In this document: piece by piece, positions 17,101 through 23,100 of the stretch
How the letters are laid out: every line of letters starts with the position of its first letter
Numbering within the stretch: position 1 is the stretch's first letter
Source of the DNA: Heteronotia binoei
Taxonomy: Eukaryota
Length of the DNA: 64,000 bases
NCBI RefSeq assembly: GCF_032191835.1
Contig: NC_083237.1
Span: forward strand, 9,610,001-9,674,000
Direction: 5' to 3'
Position numbers: made by a program

Positions 17101-20100
17101 AGAATTTTTATTCGCAAGACTTCACAGCTTAGAGGGAGTAGTGCCTGGGACCCTGCCACAAATAAAGGTAAAGGATACCAATTTTTATCAGTCACAGAGC
17201 TGAATAACATAGAAACTCCTTTAACTAAATCCTCATTTTCTGAGACTTGCTTCCACTTTTATGACTTGACCGTCTAGATTTGATGATGACCTGAGTTCCT
17301 TTTCCCCATCATGAATTTCCATGAGAGTTGGTTATGACTGAAAGAGGTAAATAATTAACTCTATGCCTCTTGAGCAATTCTGCTTTCTCTGCATGTTGGA
17401 AACAAGGGGTAACACTCTGTATCTAGTACATTTTAATCTTGCTCGGTGTATTTCAGAATAGTGCACAGGATTCACAAGGCTGACAGAATATTACAGAATA
17501 GTCCTTGGGTAGTTAAACCCTCGAGGGATTTGTGCAATATAGGCTTGACAGAGGAAATAATCAGCCTTGCCATTAAAACCTCAAGTCAGCATTCTCAGAC
17601 ATATTTTATTATTATCTATGCATTGTGGCCTTTCTTTAGAGAACTGCTGCCCCCTTCTGAGAATAAAGGAAGACAATTTCCTACTTTGGCTTTAAGAATA
17701 TACTAGGAGTAAGGTTTGTTGTGAAGAAAAATACAACAGGCTCTAGAAGGAGGCTCTGGGCGAGTGCTCACCACCCTTGTTGTCTTCCCACCCACCCAAG
17801 TGAAGGCATTGACTCCCCCTGCCTCAAGGAGAGCTGATCTCTGCCATCTAGAGAGCAATTGTAAATCTGAGTGATCTCCAGTGGTTCTCTGTTAAGAAAT
17901 GGTATTGTGCCTGCCTGAAGTCCTATCCCTCCTCAAGCCCCACCCTCTCCAGGCTCCACCCCTTAAATCTCCACGAATTTCTTAACCTGGAGTTGGCAAC
18001 CCTAATTCCTTCTCTTTATCTGCCCCTCTGGCTTTGGGTTTCTATCACCTTCCCCCTCCCTGCAGCCTCTACATAGTAAAAGGACAGTCTTTTTTCACTG
18101 TGCATTGGGGACCAAAGCAGCTTACATCATTCTCCTTTCCCCACTTTGATCTGAACAAGAATTCCATGAGGCAGGTTAGGTTGAAAGTTTGTGACTGGTC
18201 TGAAATCACCCAGTTAGCTTCCACAGTAAGAACCTGTGTCTGGCAGACCCCACTCTGAAGCCCTAACTTGTATGCCCTCCTCAAACTCCACCACAGAATC
18301 TCCAGGAATTTCCCATCAACTTATATTCCATTTACCCCAGCACGCCCCAAATTAAGACACAAGACAGAGGGTTTAATGTTATGTATTCAAATGGTTTATC
18401 AATATCATTGCTTATTATCATAAACTGATGATCACAAAAGTGGGCCATGCTTGACTGCTAACTGTGGCTGCCTTTTATGGGCATGTCCATCATGGCGCCA
18501 ACCTTTGCCAGCCCTTCCACCGCTCTTGTTTATTCTCACCTCCACTATATGCCCAGAGGTGCCCAGCCTCATCCCCATCCCCTGACATACCATGCAGCCC
18601 TTACCAGGTTTGAATAGATGCTGCTCAACACCAAATGTGTTTCTTCTCAATGAACTCAGACTTAGGACATGTGATGGTCTGTCATCACCCAGTGACTCAA
18701 GATGGAGGTAGGGATGGCATTATTAGGGACAGGGAGAATGGTATGGTTATACAAAGACTGAATTCAAGAGGCTGCAGCCAATACTGGTTAGAAACTGTGG
18801 CCAGGCTGGAGTCAAGGATTGCAAGTGGTAAGACACAAGCTCATAGCACTCTGGTTGAAGACATGCTGACTCACCATGCAGCTGGTATTTGTCCAGCTCC
18901 CTCATTGCTTTTGCACACTGTGCTCTTCTGGCACAGTAATAAGTGCCGGTGTCTCCTGCCTCCATGCCTCTCATCTCCAAATAAACCTCGCTTTTGGAAG
19001 TGTCTCTGGAGATAGTGAGCCGGCTTCTCAGGGAGTCCAGGTAGCGCTTGTCATCATCCCAATAGACGAGGCACAGCCACTCCAGGCCTTTCCCTGGGGG
19101 CTGACGGATCCAGCTCACTGCATACCCATAAGAAGTGAGGGAAAACCCAGAAACAGAACAAGTGAGCCGGAGGGTCTCTGATGGCCTCAACTGCACTGAC
19201 CCAGGTTGGCTCAAGATCACTGCAGACTGGACACCTGGAAAGCAGGAATGGAAAAGTCTGTTACCCACAAGAACAACAACATGGCTCTTAGAAGTAGCAA
19301 AAGGGAAACCCAGTTGAATGAGATTATCTCCTCCAAGAGATACTTACAGGGTGGAACAGTAAAGAGCACAAAGGTCAGGAGTACAGAGTTCATGGTCCTT
19401 TCTAGAGGGAAGAAAGAAGGGGGAAATAGAGGAGGAATGAGTGGGGCTGATCTCCAAGTCACACTTTGATTGAAGACAGGACTGAAAAACCCAGTGGATA
19501 AGAAGAGGCTGAGTGAGGATAATTTGCATATTCAAATTTAATGTAAATTGATATCCAGGACTTATTTTCCATAAAAGGTGATGGTGTCGTGAGATGCTTA
19601 TGAGACAGAGTCCAATCGCTGAATGAAGTTCTTGTGTTCCAAACGAAGTAGGCTTTGGGCCATTTAATTGTTCTATTACACAAACAGCAGCAAAGATCAG
19701 AAAATAAACTGATATATGCCTGATCTGGAACTGAACCACTGGGTACAGGATAAGATGTTTAATTCTGCAACCCCTTCTATTCAGCATTGCTTACTGAATT
19801 TCCTGTATGTTTATTTGCATTTGACAGGGAAGAAAAACAGGTCCCTTTTATATCATTTTTCCCTCTAAAAAGAAAAGGGATCAAAACATTCCCTCAGCTG
19901 CTTGTGAGTACAATTTCCTTTTACAGACTTAATAAGAGTCAGGATCTTCACAAAAGCTTTTTTTTGGGGGGGGGGGGAGGGCTCTAACCAGGGTGCTTTT
20001 TTTGTAGCGGGAACTCCTTTGCATATTAGGCCACAAACCCCTGATGTAGCCAATCTCCTGGAGCTTCCAGGGCTCTTCTTCCAGGGCCTACTGTAAGCTC

Positions 20101-23100
20101 TTGGAGGATTGGCCACATCAGAGGGGTGTGACTTAATATGCAAAGGGATTCCTGCTACAAAAAAAGCCCTGGCTCTAACTGGGATCAACACAAAGTTGGG
20201 AATTTTGAGTCCCACACCATTGATAAAATGGGAACTGAGCAATGGTGTCCCTCTAAGGTTGGGAGCCATAACAACTAGTTGTATAGAGGCGGGATAGAAA
20301 TAACTTAAAGAAACCTAAGCACATCTACAAACAAGTTAGATCCACTAAATTCCCTTGGGCTTACTTCTGAGGAAACACACTTTAGGAATGTGTGCCACAC
20401 AAATGAATCACGCCATCCTGTATCCAATAATCAAATTATTGGCTTCAAGTTAAGCCTTAACTTTCCTGTTGGTGCTTGCTCGTCGTGGAATTCTGGGAGC
20501 AGGAGATGAGTTGACACATTATGGAACACAGGAGACCGGTGTAGTCAGATACGGAGTGAAAAATATGTCTGTTGCTGTCTTTGCCTCTTACAACCAAGAC
20601 ACTGCAGAGACAATGAAGTCCCCCTGGAATTACACCAATCACTATGATTTAACCGTCTTGGCAAAGTTTTGAGTAGCTTAAAAAAAAAAAAAAGAAGAAG
20701 CAACCTGAAGAGTCTATATATAGTTAGGGCATTTGACATCCTGCTTTGATAAATGCCAGACTTGAAAGTGGTGCCAGCGATTCTGATCCTTCTGAAATTA
20801 AAGACATGGAGGATGATACTTGCATTACCCCTTTAGAAGTGTGTTGATGGATCCAGCATCTACCCAAGGAAGGTGAATTCAGTCAAAGTGATGCTATAGA
20901 TAGGGCCCAGGCGAGGCTGCATACAGACCTGGAGTGCTGTCCAGATGCTGAGGCTACTGGTGTTTCTGCTGCTTCTCACTTGCATGGCATGCAGAACAGA
21001 TACAACAAAGTGTCGCATGAAAGATTTTTCTCCCCGTTCCTCATGAGTTCCTCCAGCCAGGTGATCTCCTCATTGGTGAGATGACTTCGCTGATATTTTA
21101 TGATTTTCAATTGTTGTCCTTCAAGGGATATCCTTCTCCAAACTCATTGGATGTGCCACAGTAAGGAATTGCCATTCATGTTCTGCTTTTTATGGCTTTT
21201 TTTGTAGCAGAAATTTTTATGACCATTGTCTTTACCTATAACAGGCTGATCATAGAACCTGTTGGCTTCACCCAGTGAAGCATTTCTCCCTTACAGTCCC
21301 TTTCTGAATCATATTTGCTCTTCTGTGTTTGCAATGTATATGGGCTGTCTTCTTCCACAATAAGAGCAGCTTATATTTTGTTAGACAGGGGATGGGAGTT
21401 GAAATGGAGATGTAGTGCATTTGTTTTTTTAAAGCAACAACTCTGAATGTAGCTAGTTTAGTAGATGGCTTGAATGCACAGTGATGTAAAACATGAAAAG
21501 GGGGATTTTTTTAAAAAAAAAATCAATCTTCAAATGCATATGAAATAATATGTAAATATGCTGAAAAGCTGTGATAAGGACAACCATGTCAAAACCAAAA
21601 ATCTCTGCACAGACTCATTAGGCAACCGTATTTTACATTAATATAAATGTGTTTAAAACCCCCAGAAAAGGTGAGAGTGGGGATGGGTCAATGAATGGAG
21701 AATGGAAGGCGACACTAAAAAGATCAGTGTTGGGGTTCATAATATTACAGAACAGCAGGTCAAGGTCATGGCAGGTTAATTGCCAGGGCACATACCTTAA
21801 CTCAAGACAAGTCCTGGCCCCACTGATGGACCTCATGATGGCACCTGGGTTTTTTAGCCACTGTGTGACACAGAGTGTTGGACTGGATGGGCCGTTGGCC
21901 TGATCCAACATGGCTTCTCTTATGTTCTTATGTGACACAGAGTGTTGGACTGGATGGGCCATTGGCCTGATCCAACATGGCTTCTCTTATGTTCTTATGT
22001 GACTCAGAGTGTTGGACTGGATGGGCCATTGGCCTGATCCAACATGGCTTCCCTTATGTTCTTATGTGACACAGAGTGTTGGGCTGGAGGGGCCATTGGC
22101 CTGATCCAACATGGCTTCTCTTATGTTCTTATGACAAGTATATGAATGTCATGCTGTTACATGAGCTACTAGTGACTCTTGTAGAAACGTAATTGTGATG
22201 TCCTGAGATATAGGTTGATTCTTTGGATTCAAAATAAGTATCCTACAATATATTTAATTTGCACAAAATAAGACTTGCTGAGTCTTTCATGGGAAACTTC
22301 CGTTCATTTCTAATTCTTATTTAATTGAACTTGTGTCATATTTTGCAAACAGTTTCCGTTGACAACTTCAAATTTGTCCACATTATAGTTGTCAGCTCTT
22401 CTTTATAGGGGGAGCTTTAGGGAAGTGTGGTCTTGGAAAGAGTTGTCTATTTCCCCTCTATTTCTGTCCCATTTTTTCAAAGCTTTCAGGCAGCAGGTCT
22501 TCTACCACAAAACGTGTCTCTTGTGTCACAGGTCCTGCCACTGCCATCCTCCATGAAGATGTCTAGCCAAAAGGGAATCCAATCTTCCTCTAAGTGGCTC
22601 CCCATGACTATATAATATGGACCATTCCTTCCTTCTTTCATTTGCCTGCATTTAAGAATCTGAACTCTGAGGCCAGCATTTACTCAAATCCTTATATAGC
22701 TGCCCTTGTCTGAAAAGTGCCTGTGTTTGGGGCAGGCAGACAGATGGATAAAGAGATGTTCTGTCACATAACCACAGAGAAACATGGAAGGAAGATTTAG
22801 GTATGGATCATTGGTGACTCTTGAACAGATTTAGGGAGAACATTGTGCCCCATAGGACCTTCAGACCAGGTAGTTTAGAAGACCCAGCCAATGACGATGA
22901 AGACTGGGCACCCTCTGTAATGTGACCCATAATGCTATCTCAGTGACCAATTTTCTACAGACCTTGGGGAGGGAGATAAACTGGCCAAAAAAGAACGGGG
23001 GGGGGGGGGAGACGTAAGTTTTCCACAAGCAAATATTGTAAAACAAGGAATATCACTGGTCAATACAGGCAGGAGGAATACAGGCACTGTCCATTTAAAT

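What the first reader, a model, noticed from the sequence alone, without database searches (positions are those of the whole stretch)
18884..21160. Head-to-head VH and V2R promoters: V choice could bring a V2R next to the IgH enhancer
Seen: the VH-3 ATG (19393, -) and V2R-B ATG (20945, +) diverge about 1.55 kb apart. The orphan VH leader (38654) and VH-5 (37299) are about 2.2 and 3.5 kb from the V2R-C ATG (40839). Established: after VDJ joining the intronic IgH enhancer comes to lie a few kb from the chosen V promoter and acts independently of orientation. Inference: B cells using VH-3 or VH-5 would place that enhancer close to the V2R-B or V2R-C promoter, predicting clone-specific chemoreceptor expression tied to V usage, or else an insulating mechanism that prevents it. 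This is speculative.
Basis: inference. Interest (0 to 1): 0.65.

Follow-up and report, generated by a model that had tools for sequence, protein, structure and literature searches.

The report
Antibody V segments interleaved with pheromone-receptor genes
In this gecko DNA, antibody heavy-chain V segments and vomeronasal (V2R) receptor genes alternate on opposite strands, so some pairs start back to back, but nothing in the sequence shows that they share regulation.

Summary
VH-3 starts at 19393 (-) and V2R-B at 20945 (+), 1,552 bp apart. VH-5 (37299) and an orphan leader (38654) lie 3,540 and 2,185 bp from the V2R-C ATG (40839).

The window matches named Heteronotia binoei (gecko) V2R records at 99-100%. 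It holds four V2R genes on + and five VH segments plus one leader on -.

VH-3 and VH-5 look able to recombine: split leader, open V-set exon, CACAGTG-23-nonamer, and an octamer or its variant.

Three corrections:
- V2R-B exon 1 has a +1 frameshift, giving a stop after 33 codons. Exons 2-6 are still under purifying selection.
- The orphan leader has no V exon or RSS.
- An enhancer in the J-C intron is known for mammals, not squamates.

The 1.55-kb spacer has no CpG island and no CTCF-consensus match, and it carries a MITE-like repeat. The two promoters look like separate modules.

The enhancer-proximity idea fits the geometry but cannot be tested from sequence. The most likely reading is a neutral interleaving of two multigene families. 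This resembles other non-Ig genes embedded in antigen-receptor loci. My four literature searches found no report of it.

The parts
18884..18922 (-). VH-3 recombination signal: heptamer CACAGTG 18922-18916, 23-nt spacer, nonamer ACAAATACC 18892-18884
18923..19234 (-). VH-3 V exon (L-part2 plus V region; open frame; Cys, Trp and Cys landmarks; clan-II/VH2-like)
19348..19393 (-). VH-3 leader exon (ATG 19393, 46 nt, donor GTAAGT); leader intron 19235-19347
19522..19529 (-). Perfect octamer ATGCAAAT, 129 bp upstream of the VH-3 ATG. A second copy lies at 19813-19820. Homology of the VH-3 promoter to VH-1 ends at about 19634.
19988..20172 (.). MITE-like palindromic repeat (61-nt arms, 85% complementary) in the middle of the spacer; other copies at 11169-11343 and 5249-5369
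20715..20721 (+). TATATAT, the only TATA-like word within 400 bp upstream of the V2R-B ATG; candidate core promoter, unverified
20945..21160 (+). V2R-B exon 1, 216 nt against 212 nt in V2R-C and V2R-D. One extra base within 21025-21035 shifts the frame, giving TGA at 21044-21046. Donor GTAAGG at 21161.
23321..32133 (+). V2R-B exons 2-6: 23321-23612, 23977-24840, 26251-26478, 30453-30576, 31235-32133. All are open. Exon 6 is 100% identical to a named H. binoei protein.
36829..37299 (-). VH-5: nonamer GCAAAAACC 36837-36829, heptamer 36867-36861, V exon 36868-37174, leader 37260-37299 (ATG 37299)
37384..37414 (-). VH-5 promoter: variant octamer ATGTAAAT 37414-37407 and TATAAA 37389-37384
   Evidence: the variant octamer is functional in the catfish enhancer (PMC1800861 passages)
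37966..38430 (+). Open frame that I read from memory as the 3' end of a CR1-type LINE (no Pfam hit). It occupies the place where the orphan leader's V exon should be.
38615..38774 (-). Orphan VH leader (ATG 38654, 40 nt, donor GTAATT) with a VH-5-like promoter (ATGTAAAT 38774-38767; TATA changed to TTTAAA). No V exon and no RSS.
40839..51128 (+). V2R-C, apparently intact. Exons 40839-41050, 44103-44394, 44923-45786, 47318-47545, 48851-48974, 50227-51128. Exon lengths sum to 2,619 nt, or 873 codons before the stop.
1461..10310 (+). V2R-A exons 2-6 (exon 1 is cut by the window start); equals a named H. binoei 799-aa model
58399..63259 (+). V2R-D exons 1-4 (the rest is off the window); no VH upstream of it
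11783..12857 (-). VH-1: open V exon, but RSS spacer of only 12 nt, octamer lost, SINE array in the leader intron
15093..15718 (-). VH-2: open V exon, but the heptamer is CATGGTG
34180..34966 (-). VH-4: perfect octamer, CACAGTG-23-GCAAAAAAA; an N run lies in the leader intron (not filled)

Best explanation
This is a real, contiguous stretch of a gecko genome. It matches Heteronotia binoei records. Germline IGHV segments on the minus strand are interleaved with vomeronasal type-2 receptor genes on the plus strand.

VH-3 with V2R-B, and VH-5 with V2R-C, are divergent neighbours but separate transcription units. Each VH carries its own compact octamer-type promoter within about 240 bp of its ATG. 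Each V2R starts 1.5-3.5 kb away, across AT-rich, CpG-poor, transposon-laden spacer.

The arrangement is most likely a neutral result of old, interleaved tandem duplication of two multigene families. Each family would be switched on by its own cell-type-specific factors and chromatin, B lineage for one and vomeronasal neurons for the other.

Shown: the anatomy, the orientation, the integrity of each element, and the absence of shared-promoter features.
Inferred: independence of regulation; D-J-C lying to the left; and that a VH-3 or VH-5 join would leave V2R-B or V2R-C as the nearest upstream gene.
For: - Anatomy of VH-3 and VH-5 and the six-exon V2R structure with conserved splice sites.
- Domains.
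- Identity to named H. binoei proteins: P0241 100%, P0008 99-100%, P0336 for V2R-C.
- VH-3 promoter homology with VH-1 stops at 19634. V2R-C and V2R-D share about 550 bp of upstream homology, although D has no VH partner. The V2R upstream module therefore does not depend on a VH neighbour.
- The spacer has CpG o/e 0.19, with 13 CpG in 1,551 bp. It holds a dispersed MITE-like repeat.
- The arrangement is old. A-B dS is 0.45 and B-C dS 0.96. VH-1/VH-3 are about 77% identical at DNA level. Gekko japonicus proteins closest to V2R-A (P0010) and to V2R-C/D (P0028) are both listed on a contig of 101,699 bp.
- No N run lies in any junction interval.
Against: - Independence of regulation is not shown. 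No expression or chromatin data exist here.
- The spacer holds two perfect octamers (19522, 19813), and octamers work in either orientation, so divergent transcription from the VH-3 promoter cannot be excluded.
- No CTCF-consensus site separates the pairs, so a classical insulator is not evident.
- ATGCAAAT is enriched in the window: 13 against 4.3 expected, with 0 of 100 shuffles reaching 13. This includes a conserved copy in intron 2 of three V2R genes, which is unexplained.
- Whether VH segments also sit between the Gekko orthologues could not be checked.
Confidence: 0.6

Rival explanations
1. After VH-3 or VH-5 joins to DJ, an IgH enhancer a few kb downstream also drives the divergent V2R-B or V2R-C promoter. 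This would give V2R transcripts tied to V usage in B-cell clones.
For: - The geometry fits.
- VH-3 and VH-5 look able to recombine.
- V2R-C is intact.
- No CTCF-consensus site lies in 19394-20944, and only one 2-mismatch site lies in 37300-40838, inside the CR1 fragment.
- Precedent: Wang and Calame 1985, on the enhancer activating tandem VH promoters. I saw only its title in a reference list (PMC2118885); its content is recalled.
Against: - The position of the enhancer in geckos is unknown, and it is not intronic in catfish (PMC1800861 passages).
- The V2R-B frame is broken in exon 1, so at most a non-coding transcript would result.
- V2R upstream regions show no octamer or TATA arrangement like a VH promoter, apart from one TATATAT.
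- The promoters are CpG-poor and probably tissue-restricted.
- The orphan leader cannot rearrange.
- No expression data are available.
Confidence: 0.15
2. The VH segments here are orphons, or a non-functional outlier cluster sitting in a large V2R array, not linked to D-J-C. No enhancer would ever come near them.
For: - 2 of 5 VH have defective signals: VH-1 has a 12-nt spacer and VH-2 has heptamer CATGGTG. One leader lacks its V exon.
- Every H. binoei V2R among the 120 best hits listed in each lies on a contig of one length (68,086,271 bp). This suggests a very large V2R array there.
- The window holds no JH-like segment.
Against: - 3 of 5 VH keep leader, splice sites, open frame, promoter motif and a 23-RSS.
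- VH-3 is 89% identical to a Gekko kuhli V protein and 82-83% to turtle ones. The family-specific Cys is kept in 10 of 11 aligned rows. This points to continued constraint.
- A share of pseudogenes is normal in real IGHV loci (established knowledge).
Confidence: 0.17
3. Assembly artefact: two clusters mis-joined or collapsed.
For: Two N runs lie in the window, and both families are repeat-rich.
Against: The families alternate four times (A/VH-1, VH-3/B, B/VH-4, VH-5/C) in gap-free sequence. The N runs lie inside a V2R-B intron and the VH-4 leader intron.
Confidence: 0.03

Closest known systems
Unrelated genes embedded in antigen-receptor loci: trypsinogen genes in TRB, ADAM6 between VH and D in IGH, olfactory-receptor genes beside TRA/TRD (all recalled, not checked here)
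   Same: A non-immune gene family sits among rearranging V segments. Part of it would be deleted or brought near the joined gene by V(D)J recombination.
   Different: Here a chemoreceptor family alternates with VH segments one for one or one for three, always on the opposite strand. The species is a gecko. My searches found no description of it.
Activation of an upstream unrearranged VH promoter by the heavy-chain enhancer (Wang and Calame 1985; title seen in a reference list; content recalled)
   Same: A promoter just upstream of the VDJ stays in cis with the enhancer after deletion.
   Different: That case concerns another octamer-type VH promoter in mouse. Here the neighbour is a V2R gene with no demonstrated B-cell promoter elements, and the enhancer's position in geckos is unknown.
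Mouse H2-Mv (MHC class Ib) genes interspersed in a V2R cluster and co-expressed with V2Rs (recalled)
   Same: Immune-type Ig-superfamily genes interleaved with V2R genes.
   Different: The H2-Mv genes are complete genes expressed in vomeronasal neurons. The elements here are germline V segments with recombination signals and no constant or membrane part.
Bidirectional promoters
   Same: Divergent gene starts.
   Different: ATG to ATG is 1,552 bp, there is no CpG island, and a transposon lies between the starts. The usual criteria are not met.

Membership tests
Germline IGHV segment, potentially functional (VH-3, VH-5) | Split leader with ATG, phase-1 intron, GT/AG | tested here: met
Germline IGHV segment, potentially functional (VH-3, VH-5) | Open V-set exon with the conserved Cys, Trp and Cys | tested here: met
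   nearest named hits are heavy-chain V regions
Germline IGHV segment, potentially functional (VH-3, VH-5) | 3' signal CACAGTG, 23 nt, A-rich nonamer | tested here: met
   Not met by VH-1 (12-nt spacer) or VH-2 (CATGGTG).
Germline IGHV segment, potentially functional (VH-3, VH-5) | Octamer in the promoter | tested here: met
   VH-3 has a perfect octamer. VH-5 has the variant ATGTAAAT plus TATAAA.
Germline IGHV segment, potentially functional (VH-3, VH-5) | Linked in cis to D, J and C; used in rearranged transcripts | not testable with these tools
   The window holds no JH-like segment. No vertebrate genome or transcript collection was available.
Vomeronasal type-2 receptor gene (class C GPCR) | ANF_receptor, NCD3G and 7tm_3 domains | tested here: met
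   exon by exon
Vomeronasal type-2 receptor gene (class C GPCR) | Six-exon structure with conserved boundaries | tested here: met
   212/292/864/228/124 nt plus a final exon of about 900 nt
Vomeronasal type-2 receptor gene (class C GPCR) | Uninterrupted frame from the signal-peptide ATG | tested here: not met
   Not met by V2R-B: a +1 base, a stop after 33 codons, and the two halves of exon 1 match V2R N-termini in different frames. Met by V2R-C: exon lengths sum to 873 codons and all exons are open.
Vomeronasal type-2 receptor gene (class C GPCR) | Expression in vomeronasal neurons | not testable with these tools
   No expression data.
Shared bidirectional promoter | Starts less than about 1 kb apart (criterion recalled) | tested here: not met
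   1,552 bp ATG to ATG
Shared bidirectional promoter | CpG island over both starts | tested here: not met
   CpG o/e 0.19; no 200-bp bin above 0.53
Insulated neighbours (CTCF boundary) | CTCF core motif between the two starts | tested here: not met
   No match to CCASYAGRKGGCR (consensus recalled) with up to 2 mismatches in 19394-20944. This is a consensus scan only, not binding data.

The most novel reading that the evidence does not exclude
In geckos the working IGHV repertoire may be embedded in a V2R array, so that two gene families each expressed by stochastic choice share one chromatin domain. Every B-cell clone would then carry a different somatic deletion of V2R genes. The V2R just upstream of the chosen VH would be pulled into the active IgH domain and transcribed in a clone-specific way. 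The conserved ATTTGCAT in V2R intron 2 would then be a hint of octamer-factor input into the V2R genes.
Probability: 0.08. Interest if true: 0.65.

Novelty: new member of a known kind. Interest (0 to 1): 0.38.

Why it matters
If these VH segments belong to the working heavy-chain locus, this gecko offers a natural test of two questions. How far does an immunoglobulin enhancer reach? How is a silent tissue-specific gene protected from it? Each B-cell clone would place the enhancer beside a different chemoreceptor gene.

The region would also show that a large chemosensory family and an antigen-receptor V family can expand while interleaved. As it stands, it is a well-documented piece of genome architecture, not evidence of any cross-talk.

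Tried and rejected
- The sigma-70 promoter and terminator scan is a bacterial model and says nothing here.
- Rfam: 0 matches at gathering score.
- CTCF consensus. With up to 1 mismatch there are 3 sites against 1.86 expected, none in either spacer. With up to 2 mismatches there are 38 against 22.9, none in 19394-20944 and one at 38058 inside the CR1 fragment.
- A search for JH-like coding motifs found none. A search for further RSS found only VH-1, VH-3, VH-5 and one chance 12-RSS at 41465. VH-4's nonamer fell outside that script's 2-mismatch limit.
- A search for extra VH remnants between V2R-C and V2R-D found none. One search used a frame that was off by one; one search repeated it correctly.
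- V2R-B as a long-dead pseudogene is rejected. dN/dS between A and B is 0.26. With C as outgroup, B has 40 private amino-acid changes against 55 for A.
- The extra Cys in 'EWLC' of VH-3 as a defect is rejected. It is a family trait, present in 10 of 11 rows.
The only indirect hint is that P0010 and P0028 share a contig length.
- Literature. Four searches pairing vomeronasal with IGHV, IGH locus or immunoglobulin heavy gave no relevant paper. The single co-mention that I opened (PMC10548092) concerns a Hist1/Vmn region used as an assay control. The search 'VH441 bidirectional' gave 0 papers.
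Full report
WHAT IS THERE

Six-frame reading of the window, Pfam scans and paralogue alignments give a simple map.

Four vomeronasal type-2 receptor genes lie on the plus strand:
- V2R-A: exons 2-6 at 1461-10310. Exon 1 is cut by the window start.
- V2R-B: 20945-32133.
- V2R-C: 40839-51128.
- V2R-D: exons 1-4 at 58399-63259.

All share a six-exon structure (212/292/864/228/124 nt plus a final exon of about 900 nt) with conserved GT/AG sites. The exons carry ANF_receptor, NCD3G and 7tm_3 domains.

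Five heavy-chain V exons and one leader without a V exon lie between them, all on the minus strand:
- VH-1: ATG 12857.
- VH-2: ATG 15598.
- VH-3: ATG 19393.
- VH-4: ATG 34843.
- VH-5: ATG 37299.
- Orphan leader: ATG 38654.

There is no VH between V2R-C and V2R-D. That interval holds degenerate LINE reverse-transcriptase fragments.

The two N runs (25568-25728 and 34531-34763) lie in a V2R-B intron and in the VH-4 leader intron. They were left as they are.

I searched the spliced V2R models exon by exon.

ORGANISM

V2R-B exon 6 is 100% identical over 298 residues to a 425-aa protein named 'vomeronasal type-2 receptor 26-like [Heteronotia binoei]' (P0241).

Local tblastn relates three H. binoei models to the window:
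- P0241 corresponds to 29230-29481 plus V2R-B exons 5 and 6.
- P0008 (799 aa) corresponds to V2R-A exons 2-6.
- P0336 (515 aa) corresponds to V2R-C exons 2, 4, 5 and 6.

The window is therefore gecko DNA, not human. None of these public models includes exon 1, so no annotation supports the position of the V2R promoters.

Exon 1 is nevertheless real. The V2R-C exon 1 translation aligns to residues 1-70 of a full-length Euleptes V2R at 68.6%. Of its 73 hits among the fetched V2Rs, 51 start within the first 30 residues of the subject.

THE OBSERVATION

The details are in the observation check.

VH-3 is a complete germline segment:
- Perfect octamer at 19529-19522.
- Leader 19393-19348 with donor GTAAGT.
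- V exon 19234-18923 with an open V-set frame.
- CACAGTG, a 23-nt spacer and ACAAATACC ending at 18884.

Its nearest relatives are V proteins of Gekko kuhli (89%) and turtles (82-83%), followed by mammalian proteins named as heavy-chain V2-type regions. The odd Cys in 'EWLC' is a trait of this reptile family, present in 10 of 11 aligned rows.

VH-5 is equally complete. It has the variant octamer ATGTAAAT, TATAAA and CACAGTG-23-GCAAAAACC. Passages of PMC1800861 describe variant octamers, one of which reads ATGTAAAT, as fully functional in the catfish IGH enhancer.

THREE CORRECTIONS

1. V2R-B exon 1 is 216 nt against 212 in V2R-C and V2R-D: one extra codon plus one extra base within 21025-21035.
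- From ATG 20945 the frame stops at TGA 21044-21046 after 33 codons.
- The first 30 residues and the last 41 residues of the exon each match V2R N-termini, but in different frames.
- The exon lengths of V2R-B sum to 2,620 nt, which is not a multiple of three. Those of V2R-C sum to 2,619 nt (873 codons).
- V2R-B exons 2-6 are open. dN/dS between A and B is 0.26, and with C as outgroup B has fewer private amino-acid changes (40) than A (55).
- The break is therefore recent, polymorphic or an assembly error in a short T5/C4 run. It is not an old pseudogene.

2. The orphan leader has a VH-5-like promoter and a good donor. It is followed after about 100 bp by what I read as a CR1 3' fragment (an open frame at 37966-38430 on the plus strand). 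There is no V exon and no RSS. It cannot be chosen by the recombinase. For V2R-C the relevant partner is VH-5, at 3.5 kb.

3. Two of the other VH segments are damaged. VH-1 has a 12-nt spacer (an 11-nt deletion relative to VH-3), a lost octamer and a SINE array in its intron. VH-2 has the heptamer CATGGTG.

THE SPACER

The spacer 19394-20944 contains the following:
- The VH-3 promoter module. Its homology to VH-1 ends at 19634.
- A second octamer at 19813-19820.
- A MITE-like palindrome at 19988-20172, with other copies elsewhere in the window.
- AT-rich unique DNA, with one TATATAT at 20715.

CpG o/e is 0.19. No match to the CTCF core consensus with up to 2 mismatches falls in this interval. 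One 2-mismatch site falls in 37300-40838, inside the CR1 fragment.

V2R-C and V2R-D share about 550 bp of upstream homology although V2R-D has no VH neighbour. V2R-B aligns to them only weakly.

I therefore see two separate promoter modules, not a shared bidirectional promoter.

HOW IT MOST LIKELY WORKS

The two families have kept opposite orientations through old duplications:
- A-B dS is 0.45 and B-C dS is 0.96.
- VH-1/VH-3 and VH-2/VH-5 are 77-78% identical at DNA level.
- Gekko japonicus proteins closest to V2R-A and to V2R-C/D are listed on a contig of the same length, 101,699 bp.

I judge the head-to-head pairs to be a neutral by-product, with each family under its own cell-type-specific control (confidence 0.6).

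A deletional join of VH-3 would then leave V2R-B as the first upstream gene, about 1.5 kb beyond the VH-3 promoter. Whether an enhancer would act on it is open:
- The position of the heavy-chain enhancer is known for mammals (5' of the C cluster).
- It differs in catfish, where it lies 3' of IGHM1 (PMC1800861 passages).
- I found nothing for squamates.
- The precedent for activation of an upstream VH promoter (Wang and Calame 1985) I saw only as a reference-list entry. Its content is recalled.

COMPARISON AND NOVELTY

Non-Ig genes inside antigen-receptor loci are a known kind of arrangement. Examples are trypsinogens in TRB and ADAM6 in IGH (recalled). A V2R family alternating with IGHV segments appears to be a new example.

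Four full-text searches that paired vomeronasal with IGHV, IGH locus or immunoglobulin heavy returned nothing relevant.

WHAT STAYED UNCHECKED

- Linkage to D-J-C.
- Conservation of the interleaving in other geckos.
- Any expression or chromatin state.

Noticed in passing
window 23902-23909, 44847-44854, 61137-61144 (and 3292-3299): ATTTGCAT (plus-strand reading) sits 68-69 nt upstream of the exon 3 acceptor in V2R-B, V2R-C and V2R-D, inside an identical 12-mer TTATTTGCATAA. The surrounding intron has diverged (B-C dS about 0.96). V2R-A has lost it at that site and has another copy 157 nt upstream of its exon 3. ATGCAAAT is enriched in the window overall: 13 against 4.3 expected.
   Followed up: partly
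window 11783-11810: VH-1 has CACAGTG, a 12-nt spacer and ACAAATACC, because of an 11-nt deletion relative to VH-3. By the 12/23 rule, such a VH could not join a D segment but could in principle join a JH directly. It also lacks the octamer and has a tandem SINE array in the leader intron.
   Followed up: partly
window 28000-30000: A GC-rich, CpG-rich block (GC 0.50, CpG o/e 0.75) lies in V2R-B intron 4. The public 425-aa H. binoei model of this gene starts in it (29230-29481) instead of using exons 1-4. That exon has no Pfam domain.
   Followed up: partly
window 1461-1752, 44103-44394: The public protein models for V2R-A (799 aa) and V2R-C (515 aa) start at a Met in exon 2. The V2R-C model also skips exon 3. 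The signal-peptide exon 1 identified here is missing from all three models.
   Followed up: yes
window 53392-54738 (+) and 56142-56657 (-): Frameshifted reverse-transcriptase fragments (RVT_1, E 2.5e-13 and 1.7e-18) lie on the plus strand. On the other strand is an open frame with a weak, below-cut-off GDSL-lipase-like match (E 0.0017). Both are probably LINE debris between V2R-C and V2R-D.
   Followed up: partly
window 12190-12720 and many other sites: A tRNA-like SINE, whose translations repeatedly read 'SYLGEPGLIPHSSTC...', is scattered through introns and spacers. It forms a tandem array in the VH-1 leader intron. Rfam gave no match.
   Followed up: no
VH-3 family: This VH2-like family is unusually conserved across reptiles. 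VH-3 is 82-83% identical to turtle V proteins and 77% to an Anolis one, including a Cys at the FR2/CDR2 border.
   Followed up: partly
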